64,000 bases of DNA, from IMG/VR virus record IMGVR_UViG_2576861193_000002, one strand, 5' to 3'. Every line of letters begins with the position of its first letter. Position 1 is the first letter of the stretch. The notes beneath the pieces were generated by a model. It did no database searches and was not told where the DNA came from. It saw only the letters and a program-made list of their open reading frames with translations. Positions 7,204 to 59,648 of the stretch are shown here, piece by piece. The translations under genes and the position numbers were made by a program. This DNA comes from a virus (lineage: Duplodnaviria; Heunggongvirae; Uroviricota; Caudoviricetes).

Positions 7204-8140
7204 TTTTCCTCACATATGTCATATAGTAAAGGATTATATATACCGTTGTTTTGGACGCTCAAACAGCGAATCAGATCAAATAAAACGCACATTTGTTAAC
7301 ATTTACACAAAGTCTGCGTGGGATATTCTGAAAGAATATCCATAATGTGGAGAGAATCTATTGAAGTGCATGGTGCCGGGTGCCTCCCGGTGAACAAAAT
7401 GTTCGTGATACCTGTCGGCGACAGAAAAGGTTAATGGTATCACCCCACCGCACAGGGGGATTCACCATGCAGGAGTTTTCTTAGCAAACTCACTGCGCGC
7501 CCGGCAACTCCCAACCACATAAAATGCGGAGTTTGTGGTATTTATGCATATAACTCGCAGGAATTATCTTAAAAAACTGATGTCGATCCGGATTAAAAAG
7601 AAGCAGGTCATCATCAGATGACTGGAAAAAAGGAAAACAAAAAATACTCATCATACAGTTTTGATTGCAGGGATGAGCCTGCTATGCACAATATGCAGAA
7701 TATAAGCAAGATAAAAATATGCAGGCATATTATTTCGGATTTTGTTATTAACACAACCTTTTTAATAATCATTTGGCATACAATAAACCAGCCCAAAAAG
7801 AACCGCCTAAACAGGCGGTTGGTCAATACAAAGGATGCTTCGTCTTTATTATAGTAATCTGAGGCGTCGGGTGTCTTGTATCAGACAACATATTGTCCCG
7901 CTAAACAGCGAATTACAAACCACCCTGCAATGATCTCTCATCTCATTTTATATGAGTTGACGACATCAGGATAACGCATCATCAGCCCCTGCCAAGAAAT
8001 ATCAAAACTCCCGCCAGCAATGTGTTATCACAATAATGTAAAAAAAACACAGCACCGAAACTATAACTGGTCTCTGTTATAATTTGGAGCAGAAAGACCA
8101 GTTGCCCAACTAGCAGCATTCTCCCCTGCTTTCCTGACGT

Positions 8141-8247: not shown

Positions 8248-8790
8248 TCAAGCCATTTTCTCAGCAAATGATTCACGCATGGGAATATATAGGGCATACT
8301 CAGCAACAGCTAACCAATTAGCAATCCGTTTTTCGCATGTGCTAAAACACCACTCTGGGTGTGCATCATTTAGCAATTCAGCCATTTTGCGCTTAGTCAT
8401 CCCCCGCCCTTCATAGCGTTGCCGGAGAATGCAAATCAATCCTGGATGCTCTGCCAGCACCTCACTTATGACTCGATCAATACATAACGCCTCTGCATCA
8501 GTACAATGCGCCAGCCAGCTCTTTTGCTTGCCGTTGATCATCTCTCGCAAAAACGCTTCCAGCTCAGCTTTCTCTATTCCCGCTTTTTTCATTCTGCGCA
8601 GGGCTTCATTAATGGCTGTTTTCGTCAGTTTTTTGGATGCCAACAACTGATTGAACATATTCCCTGACCTGCCACCGCCAATATACGACCAGCGCCCCCA
8701 CATACGTAGTTTTCCCTGAATCCAGACACTTTCCAGCGTGGTGAGGCGAAGGTGTTCTCCGCTTTTTCCTGTATTCGTTGGGTAAATCAT
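8248..8790 (-). CDS. late antiterminator Q-like protein
   Basis: 180 aa; position between nin-like genes and tR'/lysis cassette; Cys-containing Q-like C-terminus. Confidence 0.7.
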   Translation of the reverse strand: MIYPTNTGKSGEHLRLTTLESVWIQGKLRMWGRWSYIGGGRSGNMFNQLLASKKLTKTAINEALRRMKKAGIEKAELEAFLREMINGKQKSWLAHCTDAEALCIDRVISEVLAEHPGLICILRQRYEGRGMTKRKMAELLNDAHPEWCFSTCEKRIANWLAVAEYALYIPMRESFAEKMA

Positions 8791-9077
8791 AAATGACCTT
8801 TCTTTCTCCAGATTTCTTGTGTGCGAAAAACCCCTTCAGCATGCATCAGGCGCAATTCTTCTTTGGTGTAATCGCTGGTTTTTACCCGCCCGTCGATTAG
8901 ATCGTGGCATGAGCTACAGGCTATCGCCGCCTGCATATCGTGTGGTTTTGTCGCTGTTCCGCACGTCCCCGCCAGCCTGTAATGCGCCAGCACAGAGGTT
9001 TCGGGATTGTGATTGCAGTAGCCAGGGATTCTGATCTGGCACATCTGGCCTTTAGCCGCTTTACGTAAATTCACCAT
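8787..9077 (-). CDS. YbcO-like nin-region protein (DUF1364-like, Cys-rich)
   Basis: 96 aa with multiple CxxC/H motifs; translationally coupled to Q. Confidence 0.65.
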   Translation of the reverse strand: MVNLRKAAKGQMCQIRIPGYCNHNPETSVLAHYRLAGTCGTATKPHDMQAAIACSSCHDLIDGRVKTSDYTKEELRLMHAEGVFRTQEIWRKKGHL

Positions 9078-9676
9078 TACGCAAACTCCAGTAGTTGTGC
9101 GGCCACATTTTCAACTTCCTCCTGAGAGGAGAATTTACGGAACAGAATCCAGTTCCACAGCACATTCAGTACAGATTTATAAACCTGCTGAAACTCGACT
9201 TCGTCCACATTCGCAAAAGCGATGGATTTTGCCCGACGCCCACGGCTACCGTCCGGATAAATATGCTCGGTGTAAAATCCGGCCTGAATGGTTACCCACT
9301 CGCGGAAAGCCTCAAACGACTTTAGCAACGCCGTATCCCGGGTTCTACGAGTCGCAACGGTGTTAAGGTATTGCTCTGCGGCATCACTCAGGGCTGGCGT
9401 GTGTTCCCGACCAACTGATTCGCACAGGTAATCAACGAAACCAGACAGCAGTTCTCGTTCGCGAGGCGTGATCGCCCCACCGACCGGAGTCCAGTAATCG
9501 AATCCCAGTTGCAGGAGTTTGAAAAAACGCTTGTGGAATGCGTAGTTACGCACACGCTTAAAGTCTGCGTGTATCCACTCACCTATTTTGATTTGATGCA
9601 GAAAATCGCAACTCTCCGGCGTCGCCGGGAGAAGTAAACCAGAAGAAGTTTGTTTGACCAGTTGTATATGCGCCAT
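9077..9676 (-). CDS. YbcN-like nin-region protein (DUF1367-like)
   Basis: 199 aa; synteny with ybcN-ybcO-Q of lambdoid prophages. Confidence 0.65.
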   Translation of the reverse strand: MAHIQLVKQTSSGLLLPATPESCDFLHQIKIGEWIHADFKRVRNYAFHKRFFKLLQLGFDYWTPVGGAITPRERELLSGFVDYLCESVGREHTPALSDAAEQYLNTVATRRTRDTALLKSFEAFREWVTIQAGFYTEHIYPDGSRGRRAKSIAFANVDEVEFQQVYKSVLNVLWNWILFRKFSSQEEVENVAAQLLEFA

Positions 9677-10144: not shown

Positions 10145-10300
10145 TTACTCCTCAGGTTCGTAAGCTGTGAAGACAGCGACCTCCGTCTGACCGGTTCGGA
10201 TTCGCACCTCGCAGAGGTCTTTCCTCGTTACCAGTGCCGTCACTATGACGGTTAAACAGATGACAATCAGTGCGACTAACATCGCCTTTTGCTGCTTCAT
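10145..10300 (-). CDS. hok: Hok/Gef family type I toxin (HokD/RelF-like)
   Basis: MKQQKAMLVALIVICLTVIVTALVTRKDLCEVRIRTGQTEVAVFTAYEPEE; SD aaggag upstream; in-frame upstream extension in the six-frame ORF. Confidence 0.85.
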   Translation of the reverse strand: MKQQKAMLVALIVICLTVIVTALVTRKDLCEVRIRTGQTEVAVFTAYEPEE

Positions 10301-10780
10301 AGCCTGCTTCTCCTTGCCTTCCGGCGCGTAAGAGGCTAACCTACATGTGCAAAGCATGAAATTGGCCTCAGATTAATGTTAAGCGTCTTGCCGGACGCGT
10401 AATGTTATCTGGGGCTTTTCTCTATCTGCCTTTGGTGTTCATGCCTGAGGCAGATAGCCTCAAGCACCCGCAGCAATTCTACTTAACTCCCGTCACCTCG
10501 CCAATATAAAATCAATCAGAAAGGCGATCCATAAGAACAACAGCAAGACAATAAATTGCCATTACAGCCGCAATAGCTAGCGCACATTTGAGAACCAGCA
10601 CGACAACCTCCTGTATTGGACGTACACCAGTTCTGATAAATATGAGGCTGTCTCATCATTGATTCAATATAACTATTGGGTATAGTTTCTGTGATTTTGT
10701 TCTGTAGAAATGGAACACAACAACCAGTCACCACCAGCACTTCTTTAAATACGCCAAGTCCGACGCAAGCTAACCTTCTA

Positions 10781-26209: not shown

Positions 26210-26404
26210 ATGAGATATGACAATGTTAAACCATGTCCATTTTGTGGTTGTCCATCAGTAACGGTGAAAGCCATTTCAGGATATTACCGAGCGAAGTGTA
26301 ACGGATGCGAATCCCGAACCGGTTATGGTGGAAGTGAAAAAGAAGCACTCGAAAGATGGAATAAACGAACCACTGGAAATAATAATGGAGGTGTTCATGT
26401 ATAA
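26210..26404 (+). CDS. ralR: restriction alleviation protein RalR (Lar)
   Basis: 64 aa, MRYDNVKPCPFCGCPS… zinc ribbon. Confidence 0.8.
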   Translation: MRYDNVKPCPFCGCPSVTVKAISGYYRAKCNGCESRTGYGGSEKEALERWNKRTTGNNNGGVHV

Positions 26405-26606
26405 AATTACCGCCACTATTGAAAAGGAAGGTGGCACTCCTACTAACTGGACAAGATATTCAAAATCTAAACTAACGAAATCAGAATGCGAAAAAATGCT
26501 CTCAGGTAAAAAAGAAGCAGGCGTTTCCAGAGAGCAGAAAGTAAAACTGATAAATTTTAATTGCGAGAAACTTCAGTCCTCGAGAATTGCATTGTATTCA
26601 AATTAA
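26397..26606 (+). CDS. ydaC: YdaC-like protein
   Basis: 69 aa, MYKITATIEKEGG…; Rac synteny. Confidence 0.7.
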   Translation: MYKITATIEKEGGTPTNWTRYSKSKLTKSECEKMLSGKKEAGVSREQKVKLINFNCEKLQSSRIALYSN

Positions 26607-30886: not shown

Positions 30887-30998
30887 AAAAAAAAGCCGAC
30901 TCATCAAAGTCGGCGTCGTACGAATCAATTGTGCTATGCAGTAATTCAAAAAAGGAAGTAAGACAATATGGAGCGCAACGCCCATCGCTTGACGTTGC
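30887..30998 (-). ncRNA. fnrS: FnrS small RNA
   Basis: Reverse complement reads GCAGGTGAATGCAACGTCAAGCGATGGGCG…GCCGACTTTGATGAGTCGGCTTTTTTTT, matching FnrS as recalled; terminal hairpin + U-run. Confidence 0.8.
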
Positions 30999-31043
30999 AT
31001 TCACCTGCAAGAGAGATATTGCCCTGAATGGGTAGAGAGTTTA

Positions 31044-43807: not shown

Positions 43808-43853
43808 GTACTCAAAAGGAAGCATGGTTAACAAAATGGCGCGGAGGTGTGAG

Positions 43854-45006: not shown

Positions 45007-45360
45007 CTAGCTGACAACTTGCTCAAATGTTGCGTTTAGCGTGTATACAGGCCCGTCCTTTGTCATACTCCAGCTACGGCAAACAAAAAGCCTTTGCACG
45101 CCATCCATAGACGGCGACCAGTAAAAAGCCTCGACAGCGCCGCGCGCCCTCAAGAATGCTTCTGCCTGGATCGCTACGTTCCCACCATCACCGCATCCTG
45201 CACTACTGCCTTTAAAGACCAGGGTGTAGCTATCAAGCAACGTGTTAATCCCTTTCGCCTGGCGCTGTTCATAACCATCACCAAGTTTAATGACAGATAC
45301 GTTTGGTTCCCTGGTCACGCTGTAGCTTCTTTGCGGCGTCCATCTGAAAACTTCTGGCAT
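45007..45360 (-). CDS. minor tail protein M-like
   Basis: 117 aa; between tape measure and L. Confidence 0.65.
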   Translation of the reverse strand: MPEVFRWTPQRSYSVTREPNVSVIKLGDGYEQRQAKGINTLLDSYTLVFKGSSAGCGDGGNVAIQAEAFLRARGAVEAFYWSPSMDGVQRLFVCRSWSMTKDGPVYTLNATFEQVVS

Positions 45361-45529
45361 GATTCCCCCTATAAGTTACATATTGCATACATCTTTACGC
45401 GCTTCTACGCGAAAAATGAGAAATTCATCACAAGAATTATAACCAGTTTACAAAATGGCTTCACATAAGGCGTGACAAGATGTATATAGTAAGCAAGAAG
45501 AAAAAGCAGTACCGACAAAGGGGGGCAAT

Positions 45530-45685
45530 ATGGAACGCTATGTGGTTGTGATGCTGAACAAAGCATTCGAACAGGTGGAAGTTGCGATTGTGAAGGGCTT
45601 TGATGATGCATTCAAATACGGTCAATTTATGATGAATGCGAAGGAAAATGAGTACCGTGATTTCTTCCTAAAAGTAGTCAACTGA
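45530..45685 (+). CDS. hypothetical 51-aa protein (first gene of T5orf172 cassette)
   Basis: Strong SD aaagggggg then ATG; MERYVVVMLNKAFEQVEVAIVKGFDDAFKYGQFMMNAKENEYRDFFLKVVN. Confidence 0.45.
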   Translation: MERYVVVMLNKAFEQVEVAIVKGFDDAFKYGQFMMNAKENEYRDFFLKVVN

Positions 45686-45705
45686 TTGATTGCGTGGGGT
45701 GAGTT

Positions 45706-45960
45706 ATGAAATTGGTAATGATTGGCAAAAACCTGAAAGCTCAGAAAAACGCGCCGGAACATGTAGTTAAAAAAGCAAAGGAACTTTTGAACGCGTTTTT
45801 AAACAAGAATGCGTCACCCAAAAAATTGAAAGACGGTTACGGCTACGCCTTCCGCGCCAATTTAGACTGGCGAGTCTATAGCCAGGATCTGAAGGAGTGG
45901 GTGATTGTTGAACACCATAAATTCAATGAATTGTCTGGCGTTCGCGGTTGCCATAAGTAA
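45706..45960 (+). CDS. hypothetical 84-aa basic protein (weak RelE/ParE-like C-terminal pattern)
   Basis: SD ggggtgag; …GYGYAFRANLDWRVYSQDLKEWVIVEHHKF… is reminiscent of RelE-fold toxins but unconfirmed. Confidence 0.45.
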   Translation: MKLVMIGKNLKAQKNAPEHVVKKAKELLNAFLNKNASPKKLKDGYGYAFRANLDWRVYSQDLKEWVIVEHHKFNELSGVRGCHK

Positions 45961-46047
45961 GGCGGGATATGGATGACGATAAATTCACCCGGCGGGAGAT
46001 CTGGAATATTTAGTTGGTGATTTTCGTGAGGGGATATATCTCGCGGA

Positions 46048-47007
46048 ATGGTCGGATATAAAATGGGTGTGATTATGGCGCGAAAAATGACACATGAAGA
46101 ACATATTGCAGATATAGCAAATGTCAATCCTCGTGTTGATATTTTAGGAGAAATTACAGGCTGCAATGATAAGGTGTCGTGTCGTTGCAGAGTTTGTAAC
46201 CACAAATGGCGTACTACGCCGCACAGCCTTAAGGCTGGCAGGGGCTGCCCCGAATGTAAAAGAACAAAGATAGCACGAATAAAACAACTATCACATAACG
46301 ATCATGTTGCTGCAATTGCTAATGTTAATCCATTTGTTGAAGTGCTAGAAAAAATTGTTAATGTAAAGAAAAAGATCGCATGTCGTTGTAATAATTGCAA
46401 AAACATATGGATGACTACGCCAAATGATCTCAAAAACGGTCACGGCTGTCCGAAATGCTCTGGCGTAGCGAAGCTGTCACATGAAGAGCAGATTGCAGCT
46501 ATTGCGAAAGTTAACCAAAATGTTGATGTAATAGGCAATATTGTTAATGACAAAACAAAAGTATCATGCCGCTGCAAGGCTTGCGGTCATGTGTGGTCGG
46601 CTACGCCTAACGACCTTAAAAATGGGCGCGGCTGCCCGAAATGCGCGAAACGAGGGTTTTTATCCCACGAACACGGAAAACTTTACATCATGGTTGATGA
46701 TCTTGAAGTGCCAACAATGATGAAAATCGGCGTGAGCGTTAAGGAGAACGAGCGAAGAAATAAAGTATTAAAAAGCGCACATAAAGCAGGTGTCAGAATC
46801 CCTGATTTGTATGTCGTGAAAACGTGGGTGGGGCCAACTGAAAAAGTACAAGAATTAGAAAGCACGATGCATAAGGCTTTTAGCAATTATAAAATTAACT
46901 TCCCTGTAAAATTTGATGGCAGTAATGAATTTTTCTACTACAGGCCGGAAGTATTCAGCATGGTAGAAAGTACATACAGTGATATTGTAAATAAAAATGC
47001 GGCATGA
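46048..47007 (+). CDS. T5orf172 / GIY-YIG-like domain protein with three tandem zinc-ribbon repeats
   Basis: 319 aa; three ~60-aa repeats each with CRCxxC…GCPxC; C-terminal LYIMVDD…MMKIGVS GIY-YIG-like motif. Confidence 0.6.
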   Translation: MVGYKMGVIMARKMTHEEHIADIANVNPRVDILGEITGCNDKVSCRCRVCNHKWRTTPHSLKAGRGCPECKRTKIARIKQLSHNDHVAAIANVNPFVEVLEKIVNVKKKIACRCNNCKNIWMTTPNDLKNGHGCPKCSGVAKLSHEEQIAAIAKVNQNVDVIGNIVNDKTKVSCRCKACGHVWSATPNDLKNGRGCPKCAKRGFLSHEHGKLYIMVDDLEVPTMMKIGVSVKENERRNKVLKSAHKAGVRIPDLYVVKTWVGPTEKVQELESTMHKAFSNYKINFPVKFDGSNEFFYYRPEVFSMVESTYSDIVNKNAA

Positions 47008-49255: not shown

Positions 49256-49381
49256 GATTGCTACTCCAGTTTTGTGATCTGTGTCTCTATTTTATACAAA
49301 ATGGCTTTACTTCAGCGACTCCATTTTGTATAAGGAAGCCATAGGGAACAGTTAAGAAATCAAACAAAAACGAGGTGAATT

Positions 49382-55835: not shown

Positions 55836-56770
55836 TCTTCGCCATATTTAGCGTGCGCAACCTTATAATTTTCTTGCGCTCGCTCTAATATTCGTTTGTT
55901 TAATATGTTACCAGACTCATCAACCATCACGGTAATAGTGCTACATTTGCAGTTAATTGAATTTGGCGATCTGCTCCACCATTCGCGCTGCTCTTCTATG
56001 GTGTACGTTTTCCCGTGCCGCTGTGCGTGTGACAGCCTGGTAGTCGGTGACAATGCTGAAATGTGCATTTGCATAGTGCGCAAATTAAGCTCTTCCGTCG
56101 CCGCTTCTGCCTCATCCATACGCGCTGTGCGTAACGCTGTGCATATTTCAGTGCGGGCAATACGTTTGCACCTGTATAGCGGTAATTGCGTTTCCTGCTG
56201 CAATGTGCGCGCTATTTCAAGTGGATTTAAACCACGGGCCATGCCTTCAGTTAATCGGCGGGCCATATCCTTCTTGATCTGTGCGGTCAGCCCGCGCATC
56301 TCTTCAAATACACGGGTACGGACCAGGGCAAGGCGCGTGCGATAGGTCTGGCTGGTTAATACCGCCGACACTTCAGGGTAAGCCCTGGAATATGTGACTG
56401 ACTGATTAGCGAGGTTGGCGTATTCCTGAGAAGTGCCGCGTTGATATGCCACCTTTACATATTCTTGCCAGAACCAGAAGTTTTCCGGGTCTGTTAACTC
56501 GAATATTTCATCAATCATGTCGCTGGCGTCTTCCAGCAAGTCATGTAATTCGTCAATGTAGATCTGAAAGGTGTATTTTTTATTAACAGCCAGGCTATAT
56601 TGCATTCTGTCCAGTATGGCAATATACGGATCCGCAACTTTCTTCAGGCAGGCTTTAAAACGCTTGATAGCGCCAGACCGTAACTTCCCTGTCATGGTCG
56701 GGTCTTCGGTGTTAGATGGCATTATCGCGGCGGGAGGTATTCGCCTGATTATTTTCTTCACCTTCATCAT
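55826..56770 (-). CDS. head morphogenesis protein (SPP1 gp7 / Mu F-like)
   Basis: 314 aa immediately after portal. Confidence 0.65.
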   Translation of the reverse strand: MMKVKKIIRRIPPAAIMPSNTEDPTMTGKLRSGAIKRFKACLKKVADPYIAILDRMQYSLAVNKKYTFQIYIDELHDLLEDASDMIDEIFELTDPENFWFWQEYVKVAYQRGTSQEYANLANQSVTYSRAYPEVSAVLTSQTYRTRLALVRTRVFEEMRGLTAQIKKDMARRLTEGMARGLNPLEIARTLQQETQLPLYRCKRIARTEICTALRTARMDEAEAATEELNLRTMQMHISALSPTTRLSHAQRHGKTYTIEEQREWWSRSPNSINCKCSTITVMVDESGNILNKRILERAQENYKVAHAKYGEDWE

Positions 56771-58085
56771 CGTTTTCCTCGTCTTCCAGTTCTACTTCAC
56801 TAGCTGGGCCATCGTATCCGGCAGCTTCGCGGATCTCGTCACCGCTAAATATTTCCTCACCAGTAGCAAGACAAGCCTGATTGATTTGCGCCATTTTGTG
56901 TGCCGCTTCCAGTAGCTCGGCTTTTGTCATGGCGTTAAGGTCATCCCATAAAACTGATACATCGACTGGCATACTGATAAGGCGGAGATCTGCCATCTTG
57001 CGGAATAGTTCCTCAAGCTCGCCTCCAATTTCCTCACGGCGGGTCATACAGCGATTATTGAAGTAGCGTAGGTCTTCAGTTGATGCGCGTTCGCCCTGCT
57101 GATTCCCTACCAGGATACGCGTCGGAATGTCGATACCAGCGGCGGCAGTTTGCAGGTTGACGTCATAGGTTGCAGATGGATCGGCTACGGCAGTTACCAG
57201 CGGGCTAACACTTGCCCCTTGTAATGCCATCATCACATCATTACCCCTATTCATTTCTGCTGCTGCCTCGTTGAATTTCTCGCGTAGCTCTGTAACGTCG
57301 CAATCGTATGTTGCAGCCAGGGAACGGAAATCAATCTCTTTATCGAACGAGATAGCCAGTTGACGAGCGGCATTTTTCAGGAATGACTCACCGCTACCGC
57401 CTTCCACTTTCTCCAGCGAAACGAAAGCGTTATAGGACGGCTCAAGGAAAGCGATAGCATCATCAGAATAATCACCGAAAATAAAGATACGGTCTGGATG
57501 AATCTTTCTTGCTATGGTCTTACTGTTGATGCGCTCCTTGTATTCCCACCATGTCGGCAGGCCATAGTTTTCTTTATCCGGGTTTTCTTCGAAGTCCTTC
57601 GGCGTAAGAGCACCAGCCCACACAGGGGTGAATTTGGCAATGCCTACGCCTTTTGTTACTGGCTGATCCCACGGCTGATTATCTCTGACATGAATTAACA
57701 GGCCCGCATAACGACCGATGAGGCGGCGGCGATCGCATTCAGCTATGACGCGCCAGAAACGATTATCAAATTGCTTTTTAATTTCTCTTTCCCACGGCGT
57801 TTCCGTTTCTGCTTTCTCGTCTTCCGTACCTTCAATCAGCGTTGGCCTGGTGCGCCAGCACGTAGTGATGATCTTCTCAATGGCACCGTGAGCGATACCA
57901 CCGCGACGATACAGCTTGTAAAGATCTTCATAGGTGATTTCTTCTTTGAATCCGTATTCACTCCACGCAGCGTCACGTTTTGCGTCAATACCCATTGAGA
58001 ATGGGTTAGCGGCTGCATAGCGGGCAAAGGCCGCCTGGCGTTGTGACAAGGCAGCATTAACCGCCAATTCTAAATTGGATGGCAT
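56712..58085 (-). CDS. portal protein
   Basis: Start at MPSNLE with SD aggag; acidic C-terminus; downstream of large terminase. Confidence 0.75.
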   Translation of the reverse strand: MPSNLELAVNAALSQRQAAFARYAAANPFSMGIDAKRDAAWSEYGFKEEITYEDLYKLYRRGGIAHGAIEKIITTCWRTRPTLIEGTEDEKAETETPWEREIKKQFDNRFWRVIAECDRRRLIGRYAGLLIHVRDNQPWDQPVTKGVGIAKFTPVWAGALTPKDFEENPDKENYGLPTWWEYKERINSKTIARKIHPDRIFIFGDYSDDAIAFLEPSYNAFVSLEKVEGGSGESFLKNAARQLAISFDKEIDFRSLAATYDCDVTELREKFNEAAAEMNRGNDVMMALQGASVSPLVTAVADPSATYDVNLQTAAAGIDIPTRILVGNQQGERASTEDLRYFNNRCMTRREEIGGELEELFRKMADLRLISMPVDVSVLWDDLNAMTKAELLEAAHKMAQINQACLATGEEIFSGDEIREAAGYDGPASEVELEDEENDDEGEENNQANTSRRDNAI

Positions 58086-58163
58086 AATGTTTACTCCTGA
58101 ATACATGTTTACGCGTTGCTACGCGAAAAATAGAAAAATTCGTGATGGGTTGTGAGGCAGATT

Positions 58164-59648
58164 TTAAAATCCGCGCAGGCGCTTAGGTAACATAAGGCCT
58201 ATAGCTTGAGGCTGACTCAATTCAGTGATGCCCCACACCATAGCGTCGAGTCGGTCCGGGGATTTTTTGGCGGTAGCTGGCACGTATTCCATCATTTGAT
58301 TTTCCAGCGTGTACAGTTCGCCAGTGTGAGCGACCTTGCCTTGCGCATACAATGCGGATATTGGTTCCGCGCGGGCAAACTTACCCTTACTGGCGTGAAC
58401 CTTAACGATACGACCATCAAAGCGAGCATTGCGTAAGGTTGCCTCCGCCATGTCGCCGCCCTGGTTGGTTTCGATAACTATCGCATCAGCTTCGTGGATC
58501 TTGTAAGCGCGTATTGCAGTTTGCGCCCAATCGTTAGGCGACATGCGGCCTGAATAGTCACCATCAACAGAATACTGAGCATTCTTGCCGCCACCATAGG
58601 CGGAACATGCCACGATCCCGGTTTCGTCAGACTCATCAGATGACGTTGTCGCCGGGTCGATGGCTATCACAGTGCGGATCTTGTCCTGCGTTATCTGCAT
58701 CCGGTGCGCTGCGGTTATCATGGCTTCAGTCCACAATGCACCATCTTCGTCGAATTTACGCGGGCGCTGCATGTACTGGGCTTCAAATGACCGCCTGTGT
58801 GCTTTCAGTCCAGCTTCATGGGCGTCATTGTGCTTTTTAGGCCATAGCCAGCCATCTGGCAGGTTGTGAGCGATAGGGATGGCGAACTCGTTTTCAGGGT
58901 ACAGATCCCAGTAGTCCAGGCTATTGTCTATCTTCACTGGCAGGTTAAGGTGATACCATTTCTCACCACTCCCACCGCGTAGCAGGTAGCCGGACAAATC
59001 ATCATAGTGGATGCGCTGCATGATGACGATGACAGGCGTTGTTTGCACTGCCAGACGTGAAGCAAGTGTGTCGTTATAATTGGTGTTTACCTGCTTTCTC
59101 ACCACGTCAGAGTAAGCGTCAGCGGGTTTCAATGGGTCGTCTATGATTAACGCGCCGTTAAATCCTGATTCCATGTACCCAGCACGGAACCCAGTTACCT
59201 GGCCAAGCGATGACGTTGCATACACGCCGCCACCGTATTCAGTCCACCACATCGATTTACTGTTGGCATCGTTGCGGATCTTCATGGGCCACATTGCCTG
59301 ATATTCAGGCGTACAGATCATGTTTCTTACAGTCGAGGAGTTGAGTAGCGCCAGGTTGTTGGAATAGGAAACGTGAAGGAATCTTGTGCGGGGATTTATT
59401 GCGAGGGACCGCGCCATCATGTTGATAGTCGCGATCATGGTTTTACCGTACCCTGGGGGAATATTAATGATGAGGCGGGTGATCTCACCATTAATAACGC
59501 GTTGCAGTGCATCACGGATGGCTAAATGATGGCCTGAGATTAACATCTTCGTTCCGTTCGCTTGTTTATAGAAATAGCGATTGAAAAACAGGCCATCGTT
59601 TTCACATTTGGACTGAATAACTCGTTCTTTGATTGTCAGCATAATCAC
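58164..59648 (-). CDS. terminase large subunit
   Basis: 494 aa; Walker A-like PPGYGKT; C-terminal nuclease acidic motifs. Confidence 0.9.
   Translation of the reverse strand: MIMLTIKERVIQSKCENDGLFFNRYFYKQANGTKMLISGHHLAIRDALQRVINGEITRLIINIPPGYGKTMIATINMMARSLAINPRTRFLHVSYSNNLALLNSSTVRNMICTPEYQAMWPMKIRNDANSKSMWWTEYGGGVYATSSLGQVTGFRAGYMESGFNGALIIDDPLKPADAYSDVVRKQVNTNYNDTLASRLAVQTTPVIVIMQRIHYDDLSGYLLRGGSGEKWYHLNLPVKIDNSLDYWDLYPENEFAIPIAHNLPDGWLWPKKHNDAHEAGLKAHRRSFEAQYMQRPRKFDEDGALWTEAMITAAHRMQITQDKIRTVIAIDPATTSSDESDETGIVACSAYGGGKNAQYSVDGDYSGRMSPNDWAQTAIRAYKIHEADAIVIETNQGGDMAEATLRNARFDGRIVKVHASKGKFARAEPISALYAQGKVAHTGELYTLENQMMEYVPATAKKSPDRLDAMVWGITELSQPQAIGLMLPKRLRGF

What the first reader, a model, noticed from the sequence alone, without database searches (positions are those of the whole stretch)
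45385..45428. Conserved ~40-nt element upstream of gene M and upstream of the portal gene
atacatCtttacgcgCtTctacgcgaaaaatGagaaa (45385-45428) and atacatGtttacgcgTtGctacgcgaaaaatagaaaaa (58101-58146) are about 85% identical. Both lie 16-70 nt upstream of a minus-strand structural gene start and contain a short CGCG(T)…(A)CGCG dyad. This may be a late-transcript RNA element or regulator binding site.
Basis: seen in the sequence. Interest (0 to 1): 0.4.

Follow-up and report, generated by a model that had tools for sequence, protein, structure and literature searches.

The report
Conserved leader element of mEp021-type phages
A roughly 43-base non-coding element sits just upstream of the portal gene and of the tail-tip gene M in every phage of the newly described mEp021 ("mEpimmI") group, and also in a family of small chromosomal islands that look like satellites of these phages; it is almost certainly a gene-expression signal, but its mechanism is not established.

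Summary
Read in the sense of the late genes, the shared core is TTTTTCGCGTAG-N-A-N-CGCGTAAA-N-ATGTAT. It occurs at 45386-45428 and 58100-58142 (minus strand), with 27/30 core identities and none expected by chance.

The prophage belongs to the mEp021/mEpimmI group: Nus-dependent, with a lambda-type Q and an Sf6-type small terminase. Every relative examined has exactly these two copies, in 35 of 5,426 complete E. coli genomes, about 50 IMG/VR contigs and 7 phage records. Outgroups with about 60% portal or M identity lack the element.

- The core is far more conserved than flanking non-coding DNA or synonymous sites.
- It matches no Rfam family.
- It is not a terminator.
- It has no usable sigma-70 promoter at the portal copy.
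- It does not resemble the phage's own nut sites.

New result: homologous copies lie in satellite-like islands inserted next to intZ in the eut operon. These islands encode homologues of the phage small terminase and tape measure. There the element travels with the downstream gene, not with the upstream regulator.

Best reading (about 0.45): a sense-strand leader or intercistronic RNA element, a U-tract plus a 4-5 bp hairpin presenting UAG, that controls the downstream cistron. Hairpin covariation is weak and contradictory, so a DNA site made of tandem CGCGTAR repeats remains a serious rival.

The parts
45386..45428 (-). Element copy A (M-type): AUGAAUUUCUCAUUUUUCGCGUAGAAGCGCGUAAAGAUGUAUG, 26 nt upstream of the M start codon
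   Evidence: Covariance model hit at 68.5 bits. Pattern search. Sequence.
58100..58142 (-). Element copy B (portal-type): CGAAUUUUUCUAUUUUUCGCGUAGCAACGCGUAAACAUGUAUU, in the TerL-portal gap, 15 nt upstream of the portal ATG
   Evidence: Covariance model hit at 60.7 bits. Pattern search. Sequence.
45398..45411 (-). Core mini-hairpin / tandem repeat of copy A: CGCG-UAGAAG-CGCG. It can extend with U-A pairs to about 12 bp; predicted -11.8 kcal/mol.
58112..58125 (-). Core mini-hairpin / tandem repeat of copy B: CGCG-UAGCAA-CGCG, predicted about -6 kcal/mol
45007..45360 (-). Minor tail protein M homologue (117 aa), the cistron downstream of copy A
   Evidence: PF05939, E=9e-29. ORF list.
56712..58085 (-). 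Portal protein (457 aa from the ATG preceded by AGGAG), the cistron downstream of copy B
   Evidence: PF06381 on homologues. RefSeq start in relatives leaves the same 78-nt gap.
58164..59648 (-). Large terminase subunit, the cistron upstream of copy B
   Evidence: PF17289
45436..45464 (-). Possible promoter for M, seen only at copy A: GTGAAG (45464..45459), 17-nt spacer, TATAAT (45441..45436). The predicted start is about 45429, at the 5' edge of copy A.
   Evidence: Read from the sequence. TATAAT, GTGAAG and the spacer length are invariant in 25 unique relatives. Not reported by the consensus scan, because the -35 matches only 3/6. Inference only.
45449..45458 (-). CCATTTTGTA motif in the spacer of that promoter; part of a separate over-represented motif family
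45530..47007 (+). Opposite-strand accessory island separating the tape measure gene from M: a 51-aa ORF, a ParE-like toxin and a zinc-ribbon/T5orf172 protein

Best explanation
The element is a cis-acting signal read on the sense strand of the transcript. It forms the 5' end of the expression module of the cistron that follows it: portal, M, or the first gene of the packaging-type operon in the satellite-like islands.

Its anatomy is a purine followed by a run of five U, then a 4-5 bp G+C hairpin (CGCG/CGCG) whose loop always begins UAG, then UAAA-N-R-U.

Proposed action (inferred, not shown): within the long Q-antiterminated late transcript, the element sets the fate of the downstream message independently of the upstream cistron. 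The most likely route is a processing and stability determinant: endonucleolytic cutting in the R-U-U-U-U tract would leave a 5'-proximal hairpin. Alternatively it could be the docking site of an RNA-binding factor that tunes translation or stability.

Shown: conservation, copy number, orientation, linkage to the downstream gene, and absence of promoter, terminator and nut features. Inferred: that the RNA rather than the DNA is the active form, and the processing/stability mechanism.
For: - Two copies per genome, always the same two contexts and the same orientation, in all relatives: 87 pattern hits; 43 unique portal-site and 25 unique M-site sequences collected through the proteins, not the motif; 35 E. 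coli genomes with 2 places each; the covariance model finds nothing else in the window or in the first 50 kb of the 54.7-kb mEp021 record.
- The block from the U-tract to the start codon is nearly invariant, while TerL synonymous sites and the DNA just upstream vary and tolerate a 70-nt insertion.
- Two of the three contexts are gaps between co-directional genes with no promoter: TerL-portal, and the satellite operon.
- In the islands the element co-segregates with the downstream ORF. L394=L396 and L392=L398 share element and ORF but have different upstream HTH genes. L391 and L394 share the HTH gene but differ in the element.
- All four one-sided substitutions in the phage helix keep a pair through G.U on the sense strand only: C19U, C29U, A13G, A38G.
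- A 1-nt loop deletion is tolerated.
- Island L395 replaces G-C/C-G by A-U/U-A, two compensatory pairs.
- At the M site the sense hairpin is more stable than the antisense in 29/30 variants, -9.7 versus -5.8 kcal/mol.
- The purine before the U-run is invariant (40 A, 1 G). This fits the R-N-W-U-U RNase E preference, which I cite from my own knowledge.
Against: - No significant covariation: shuffles match the observed values.
- The outer helix is broken in several variants: U.C in all portal copies, plus L382, L384 and P19.
- At the portal site sense and antisense folds are equally weak, -6.8 versus -7.3, with z-scores near 0 in context.
- Island variants L394/L396 and L397 have no predicted hairpin at all (0 kcal/mol) yet keep TTT-YRNG-TAG. 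In L394 both CGCG units changed in parallel (CACG...CACT), which fits a tandem repeat better than a stem.
- The conserved UAG and UAAA are not explained by a pure stabiliser hairpin.
- There are no transcript data.
Confidence: 0.45

Rival explanations
1. The element is a double-stranded DNA site for a sequence-specific protein. Two tandem CGCGTAR units, 10 bp apart and on one helical face, would be bound by a phage-, satellite- or host-encoded regulator. That regulator would act on the late genes and on the island operon, for example as a roadblock or architectural factor, or as the contact point for helper-satellite cross-talk.
For: - Everything invariant lies in the two 7-bp units (CGCGTAG / CGCGTAA), and everything variable lies in the 3-bp spacer.
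- The two C-to-T changes hit the same position of either unit.
- In L394/L396 both units changed in parallel, CACGTAG / CACTTAA.
- Diverged island copies keep sequence (TTT-YRNG-TAG-M) but not structure.
- An isolated non-coding segment is shared by a phage and islands that otherwise share only terminase and tape-measure homologues. This is what a trans-factor site would look like.
Against: - The 1-nt spacer deletion in L205/L206 changes the phasing.
- L395 loses the repeat (TATGTAG / CATCAAT) but keeps pairing.
- Orientation relative to the downstream gene is fixed in all three contexts.
- There is no promoter to regulate at the portal site or in the island gap.
- The half-site is not enriched elsewhere in the phage.
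- The element does not co-vary with the adjacent HTH protein in the islands.
Confidence: 0.25
2. The element is an antitermination-type RNA site, nut-like (bound by the N-like Gp17 with Nus factors) or put-like (acting directly on RNA polymerase). It would renew terminator resistance for transcripts entering the head genes and for transcripts started at the M promoter.
For: - The phage group is Nus-dependent and uses an N-like protein with three nut sites (PMC11893012).
- The element is a small G+C hairpin with a purine-rich loop, like boxB.
- Copy A lies about 15-40 nt downstream of a conserved TATAAT.
- Terminators follow downstream in mEp021: TERM_7, 8, 10 and 12.
Against: - There is no boxA. 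The mEp021 nut sites have GCTC(T/A)TTAA(A/C)AA; the element has UUCUCAUUUUU or UUUCUAUUUUU abutting the stem.
- mEp021 boxB loops are GNRA-like (GAAA, GCGA, GGAAG), whereas here they are AGAA/AGCA and vary freely.
- The covariance model of the element does not hit nutL, nutR1 or nutR2 even at E<=10.
- The late operon already has a lambda-family Q (PF03589).
- put RNAs are two-hairpin elements of about 65-70 nt (my own knowledge).
Confidence: 0.1
3. The element is a recombination linker or scar with little function of its own: a segment copied from the portal leader to the M junction when the accessory island was inserted, and exchanged with the eut islands by recombination.
For: - Both complete loop variants (AGAAG and AGCAA) occur at both sites, which suggests exchange between copies.
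- A truncated 25-nt copy lies in non-coding DNA of island L394.
- The island versions diverge about as fast as the flanking genes (L391 versus L394).
- An HNH gene was inserted right after copy A in one contig.
Against: - The core is much more conserved than adjacent non-coding DNA and synonymous sites across about 70 unique phage sequences.
- Both copies are retained in every genome examined.
Confidence: 0.1
4. The element is part of an activator-dependent late promoter, like the P2/P4 late promoters, with the CGCG units replacing the -35.
For: - The shared helper-plus-satellite distribution mirrors the P2/P4 late promoter elements (my own knowledge).
- The element sits at the head of the head-assembly and tail-tip gene blocks.
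- The invariant A35...T39 (AAANRT) after the second CGCG is a minimal -10-like signature.
Against: - The consensus scan finds nothing.
- At the portal copy, any start downstream of the candidate -10 falls on or after the Shine-Dalgarno sequence, only 15 nt before the ATG.
- There is no -35.
- The -7 T is missing from the TAAACA/TAAAGA hexamer.
Confidence: 0.05

Closest known systems
Lambda-type nut sites (boxA + boxB), including mEp021 nutL/nutR1/nutR2
   Same: A short G+C hairpin with a purine-rich loop in a transcribed leader. The phage is Nus-dependent. Copies are repeated at more than one place in the genome.
   Different: There is no boxA. The loops are not GNRA-like and are variable. The element lies in the late region, which is already served by Q. 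It is not detected reciprocally by the covariance model.
P2/P4 late-promoter activator sites (Ogr/Delta dyad shared by helper and satellite)
   Same: A short conserved non-coding element at the head of several late gene blocks of a phage, also carried by a satellite-like element ahead of its own operon.
   Different: No sigma-70 -10 at a workable distance at the portal copy. The arrangement is tandem repeat or mini-hairpin, not TGT-N12-ACA. The phage has a Q antiterminator rather than an Ogr-type activator.
Intercistronic mRNA processing/stabiliser elements (5' stem-loop stabilisers such as the ompA leader; T7 RNase III sites repeated between genes)
   Same: Repeated, oriented, intercistronic. 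An AU-rich single-stranded tract lies next to a hairpin. The element belongs to the downstream message.
   Different: The hairpin is only 4-5 bp (up to about 12 with U-A pairs), too short for RNase III. The conserved loop UAG and 3' UAAA are unexplained. No cleavage data exist.
Mycobacteriophage stoperators (L5 gp71 sites)
   Same: Short asymmetric sites in intergenic gaps, oriented with transcription, present in several copies.
   Different: Only two copies. The sequence is unrelated to the motif that looks like this phage's operator, CCATTTTGTW. No binding protein is known.

Membership tests
Lambda-type nut site | boxA (GCTCTTTAA-like) 5' of the hairpin, with a spacer of about 8 nt | tested here: not met
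   The mEp021 nut sites read have CGCTCATTAACAA, TGCTCTTTAAAAA and AGCTCTTTAAAAA. The element has UUCUCAUUUUU (M copy) or UUUCUAUUUUU (portal copy) directly abutting the stem.
Lambda-type nut site | boxB hairpin with a conserved GNRA-like loop | tested here: not met
   The loops are AGAA, AGCA, AGAG, AGCU, AGCG and AGA, and vary among phages. Only one variant (GGAA) is GNRA.
Lambda-type nut site | Sequence and structure similarity to the phage's own nut sites | tested here: not met
   Model R1 finds only the two late-region copies in mEp021 bases 1-50000 at E<=10.
Intrinsic terminator | G+C hairpin followed by a U-run | tested here: not met
   The U-run precedes the hairpin, and UAAAGAUG follows it. 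The opposite strand has an A-run after the hairpin. The scan lists nothing at either site.
Sigma-70 promoter | -35 and -10 hexamers with 16-18 nt spacing and a start site upstream of the ribosome-binding site | tested here: not met
   No site inside the element. At copy B any start would fall on or after the SD. A separate candidate promoter (GTGAAG-17-TATAAT) lies upstream of copy A only.
Any Rfam 15 family | Covariance-model match | tested here: not met
   Only noise (SNORA51 at E=6.9; a coronavirus UTR at E=0.42) in permissive scans of both sites. No gathering-score hit at the sites.
RfaH ops element | GGCGGTAGnnTG on the non-template strand | tested here: not met
   Only GTAGC is shared. 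6 of 10 specified positions differ when aligned on GTAG (sequence; consensus from my own knowledge).
HK022 put RNA | Two adjacent stem-loops of about 65-70 nt, just downstream of a promoter | tested here: not met
   A single small hairpin in folds of 80 nt. Copy B is not near a promoter.
Helper/satellite shared late-promoter site (P2/P4 type) | The same element in helper late operons and ahead of a satellite operon | tested here: met
   28 nt identical to the portal-type copy in island L391, and 34/36 identical in L392/L398. Model R1 scores 50, 37.9 and 32.6 bits. The islands encode Sf6-type TerS and tape-measure homologues of the phage. That the islands are satellites of this phage is an inference.
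Helper/satellite shared late-promoter site (P2/P4 type) | The element lies about 55 nt upstream of a start site with a usable -10 | tested here: not met
RNase E site plus 5' stabiliser hairpin | A single-stranded R-N-W-U-U segment within a few nt of a stem-loop | tested here: inconclusive
   A/G followed by U5 is invariant next to the stem. However, the same U-run is predicted to pair with UAAA in the extended helix.
RNase E site plus 5' stabiliser hairpin | A processed 5' end at the site, and rne-dependent stability of the downstream message | not testable with these tools
   No transcript data are available.
Structured RNA in general | Compensatory covariation in the helix | tested here: inconclusive
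   93% of cells are paired, but this is no better than shuffles. There are four G.U-compatible single changes and two compensatory pairs in L395, yet the hairpin is lost in L394/L396/L397.

The most novel reading that the evidence does not exclude
The element is the recognition site of an unidentified trans-acting late regulator that binds either the RNA or the DNA form. It would be a previously unrecognised control layer on top of Q in mEpimmI phages, governing the head-assembly block (from portal) and the tail-tip block (from M). The eut-inserted islands, which carry homologues of the phage small terminase and tape measure, would have captured the same site to time their packaging operon to the helper's late phase, or their own factor would use it to interfere with the helper.
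Probability: 0.15. Interest if true: 0.75.

Novelty: new variant of a known kind. Interest (0 to 1): 0.45.

Why it matters
mEpimmI phages were characterised only in 2025 (PMC11893012) and, by that paper's account, are as common as lambdoid phages in human faeces. Their late gene control is inferred only by analogy with lambda Q. A strictly conserved two-copy element ahead of portal and M points to an extra control point within the late region. Its presence in islands that carry terminase and tape-measure homologues gives a concrete, testable handle on a possible new helper-satellite pair in E. coli. If it turns out to be only an mRNA processing or stability signal, it is an ordinary though previously unannotated feature.

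Tried and rejected
- **Terminator on either strand.** Rejected: no U-run after the hairpin.
- **Sigma-70 promoter within the element, both orientations and several registers.** Rejected, mainly because copy B is too close to the portal start.
- **CII-like activator box (tetrad-N6-tetrad).** The repeat arrangement fits, but no -10 follows at copy B.
- **MerR-type spacer operator.** No -35.
- **nut and put.** See the membership tests.
- **RfaH ops.** Only GTAGC is shared.
- **cos/pac site.** TerS is Sf6-type, so packaging is headful. The element is not upstream of or inside terS. Two CGCGTAAA in terS are explained by Arg-Lys codons.
- **Host-factor boxes compared from my memory of the consensus sequences, not by a scan.** The CpxR box GTAAA-N5-GTAAA matches 8-9/10 in copy A only. 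CRP, IHF, ArgR, NarL and Fis were also compared; only a CRP-like TGTGA-N6-TCTCA overlaps the non-shared 5' edge of copy A.
- **Upstream ORF or leader peptide.** The AUG after the hairpin is not conserved at M sites.
- **Further degenerate copies.** None.
- **More distant relatives for covariation.** None carry the element.
- **Metagenome scan with TTGTAAACTNGNTATAAT.** The pattern was too unspecific. Only 5 of the 120 stored loci were true M sites, and none was a new variant.
- **Literature.** The 2025 mEpimmI paper does not mention the element or the operator motif. The 2023 Gp17 paper (Arch Virol 168:92) is not held in the library.

Full report
**1. Observation**

On the minus strand, the sense of the late genes, the window carries two related sequences:
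- AUGAAUUUCUCAUUUUUCGCGUAGAAGCGCGUAAAGAUGUAUG at 45428..45386
- CGAAUUUUUCUAUUUUUCGCGUAGCAACGCGUAAACAUGUAUU at 58142..58100

The 30-nt cores share 27 positions. The 43-nt spans are 82% identical with gaps. A 30-nt degenerate pattern allowing three mismatches hits only these two places, with none in 100 shuffles.

**2. Context**

- Copy A lies 26 nt upstream of a 117-aa lambda-M-type minor tail protein (PF05939).
- Copy B lies in a 78-nt gap between the large terminase and the portal gene, and ends 15 nt before the portal ATG.
- Between the tape measure gene and M the phage carries an opposite-strand accessory island: a 51-aa ORF, a ParE-like toxin and a zinc-ribbon/T5orf172 protein. Copy A therefore sits in a divergent gap, and copy B in a co-directional one.
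- The prophage belongs to the mEp021/mEpimmI group (86-95% DNA identity). These are Nus-dependent non-lambdoid coliphages described in 2025, with an N-like Gp17 and three nut sites (PMC11893012).
- mEp021 gp37 is a lambda-family Q (PF03589). The small terminase is Sf6-type.
- The paper does not mention this element.

**3. Distribution**

- An exact scan for TTTCGCGTAGNANCGCGTAAA in IMG/VR gave 82 stretches. With the mEp021 loci and the window these gave 87 pattern hits, nearly all from contigs of about 54 kb, two per contig. Each hit lies ahead of either portal or M, and always in the sense orientation.
- Sets collected through the proteins, and so not biased towards the motif, gave 43 unique portal-site and 25 unique M-site sequences. 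All of them carry the element.
- In 5,426 complete E. coli genomes, the same 35 genomes have both regions. The 47-nt element itself hits two places in each, all unannotated.
- A covariance model of the element finds no further copies in the window or in mEp021 at E<=10.
- Outgroups lack it:
  - M homologues at 60-70% identity in other genera are preceded directly by the tape measure gene or by a terminator.
  - ES18 and Kp4864-1 (portal 57-59% identical) have other sequences upstream of portal.
  - The closest outgroup portal, at 61% identity, has a gap of similar size but unrelated sequence.
  - No portal between 61% and 81% identity was found among 5.8 billion proteins, and the only one below 87% is an N-terminally truncated 81% fragment whose contig does not reach the upstream gap.
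- The element is therefore specific to the clade.

**4. Conservation pattern**

At the portal site the block from the U-tract to the start codon is almost invariant. TerL synonymous sites vary, and the 25 nt just upstream vary. A 70-nt palindromic insertion is tolerated right after the TerL stop.

Across both sites the invariant positions are U14-16, GCGU, G of UAG, GCGUAAA and U39. The three loop positions after UAG vary freely. This shows purifying selection. It rules out a neutral remnant in the phages, though not in the islands.

**5. What the element is not**

- Not an Rfam family.
- Not a terminator: the U-run precedes the hairpin.
- Not a sigma-70 promoter in any register that would leave the portal ribosome-binding site on the transcript.
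- Not like the phage's own nut sites, which have a clear boxA and GNRA-type boxB loops.
- Not ops, put, cos or pac (see the membership tests and the rejected ideas).

**6. RNA or DNA?**

For an RNA hairpin:
- All four single substitutions seen in the phage helix keep pairing through G.U on the sense strand only.
- A one-base loop deletion is tolerated.
- The sense fold at the M site is about 4 kcal/mol more stable than the antisense in 29/30 variants.
- The orientation relative to the downstream gene is fixed in all three contexts.
- Two of the three contexts are promoter-less gaps inside operons.

Against it:
- There is no statistically meaningful covariation.
- The outer helix is often broken.
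- The portal copy folds weakly and equally on both strands.
- The conserved letters fall neatly into two tandem CGCGTAR units 10 bp apart.

**7. A third context**

The blastn search with the element alone also found partial hits outside mEpimmI prophages.
- In E. coli FDAARGOS_1284, a roughly 9-kb island inserted next to intZ between eutB and eutA (the CPZ-55 position) carries ATTTTTCGCGTAGCAACGCGTAAACATG. This is 28 nt identical to the portal-type copy. It lies in a 101-nt gap between co-directional genes, 45 nt ahead of the first ORF of an operon that leads to an Sf6-type small-terminase homologue.
- Related islands in at least 24 complete genomes carry the same gap with graded versions of the element.
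  - L392, L393 and L398 differ from the portal type at 2 of 36 positions.
  - L394/L396 have CACG-TAG-CGT-CACT.
  - L395 has TATG-TAG-AGT-CATC.
  - L397 is degenerate.
- The covariance model scores L391, L392/L393 and L398 at 50, 37.9 and 32.6 bits.
- These islands share with the phage only a TerS homologue (37-38% identity) and, in some, a full-length tape measure homologue (about 50% identity). That is the signature expected of a satellite of this phage group. This is my inference, and I found no literature on it.

**8. What the islands add**

- The element segregates with the downstream ORF, not with the upstream AlpA/Xis-like HTH gene. L394 and L396, and likewise L392 and L398, share element and ORF but have unrelated HTH genes. 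L391 and L394 share the HTH gene but not the element. The element therefore belongs to the expression module of the following gene and is not the operator of the neighbouring regulator.
- L395 shows two compensatory pair changes: G-C to A-U and C-G to U-A.
- L394/L396 and L397 have no predicted hairpin at all, and in L394 both units changed in parallel. The structural evidence is therefore contradictory.
- What survives in every version is TTT-YRNG-TAG-M.

**9. Mechanism**

I commit, at about 0.45, to a sense-strand leader or intercistronic RNA element that sets the fate of the downstream message within a long antiterminated transcript. The most likely route is processing in the purine-U5 tract that leaves a 5'-proximal hairpin. 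The alternative route is binding of an RNA-binding factor to a hairpin presenting UAG.

A double-stranded DNA site of tandem CGCGTAR units for an unknown regulator is the main rival (0.25). Lesser rivals are a nut/put-like antitermination site (0.10), a recombination linker (0.10) and an activator-dependent promoter (0.05).

At copy A only, a conserved GTGAAG-17-TATAAT lies just upstream. It could make the element promoter-proximal there.

**10. Verdict**

This is a real, strongly conserved and previously unannotated cis element, specific to a recently defined phage group and shared with a putative satellite family. Its mechanism is unresolved. It is of moderate interest now, and would be of higher interest if the helper-satellite link and a trans-acting factor are confirmed.

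Noticed in passing
window 43830-43839(-), 45449-45458(-), 49295-49304(-), 49321-49330(+); mEp021 (L128) 11172, 11927, 20078, 20143, 37675, 42049, 43921: The motif CCATTTTGTW / WACAAAATGG is strongly over-represented: 7 hits versus 0.65 expected in the window, and 10 versus 0.38 in mEp021. It sits in every divergent gap between late genes and the opposite-strand accessory islands, in the immunity region abutting a TTGACT-17-TATATT promoter, and on both sides of nutR2. It abuts the -35 of the opposite-strand island promoters (ACAAAATGGC-TTCACA-17-TATATA at 45450-45488). It looks like an operator, possibly the repressor's. That would put the 'moron' islands under immunity control. The 2025 paper does not describe it.
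   Followed up: partly
L391 (NZ_CP070170 1329806-1357836) 9648-18637; also L392-L398: A family of 9-12 kb islands inserted next to intZ between eutB and eutA (the CPZ-55 position). They carry a YafO toxin pair, an AlpA/Xis-like HTH gene, about 8 small ORFs, an Sf6-type TerS homologue and, in some, a 733-aa tape measure homologue about 50% identical to the phage's. There are no capsid genes. Probably satellites of mEpimmI-type phages. No literature link was found.
   Followed up: partly
L135, L137, L138, L140, L141, L159, L166 (about 75-145 nt upstream of the portal ATG); E. coli hits H54, H57, H58, H61, H69, H83: A 70-nt palindromic insertion (GTTATTGATTATTATCAACTTCGAAAAATTTTCGAAGATGAACAAGAATAATTCTCAATT) lies immediately after the TerL stop codon in a subset of relatives. 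It may be a miniature mobile element or an added hairpin. Copy B is intact downstream of it.
   Followed up: no
L394 9054-9078 (NZ_CP074756); the same in CP132063, CP074760, CP074819: A truncated 25-nt copy (TTTTCTATTTTTCGCGTAGAAGCGC), exactly matching the phage sequence, lies in non-coding DNA after the TerS-like operon of one island lineage, under a probably spurious opposite-strand ORF. This suggests recent recombination between island and phage.
   Followed up: partly
L075 (IMGVR_UViG_2695420423_000006), minus strand about 8668-9300: A 157-aa HNH/AP2-type homing endonuclease gene is inserted between copy A and the M gene, in the same orientation. Copy A and its upstream region are unchanged.
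   Followed up: yes
window 45365-45380(-); M-site alignments: A nearly invariant block A(A/U)AUGUAACUU lies between copy A and the M ribosome-binding site. It contains an AUG-UAA start-stop and resembles the T7 gene 10 'epsilon' enhancer UUAACUUUA. It is absent from the portal copy.
   Followed up: no
window 45417-45432: A CRP-like site TGTGA-N6-TCTCA (9/10 match) overlaps the 5' edge of copy A. It is centred about 70.5 nt upstream of the predicted start of the opposite-strand island promoter, a class I activation position. TGTGA is conserved at M sites and absent at the portal site.
   Followed up: no
window 45530-45960(+), 46048-47007(+): The accessory island between the tape measure gene and M begins with a 51-aa ORF plus an 84-aa ParE-like toxin (PF24732), a likely toxin-antitoxin pair. 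A 319-aa protein follows, with three treble-clef zinc-finger/CapR repeats and a T5orf172 (GIY-YIG-like) domain. The cargo differs between relatives, while the first two genes are shared.
   Followed up: partly
mEp021 MH706966 28919-28945 (L002): The mEp021 record starts the portal at the AUG inside the 3' flank of copy B. In that phage the usual ATG is replaced (ATATTG), so a TTG 11 nt after the AGGAG is the likely true start. RefSeq prophage annotations use the downstream ATG.
   Followed up: no
window 7314-7500, 10295-10469, 26403-26581, 30891-31008: Rfam gathering-score hits to STnc100, sok, RalA and FnrS. The first ~31 kb of the window is therefore host chromosome with Rac-type prophage material, and the mEpimmI prophage lies beyond FnrS.
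   Followed up: no
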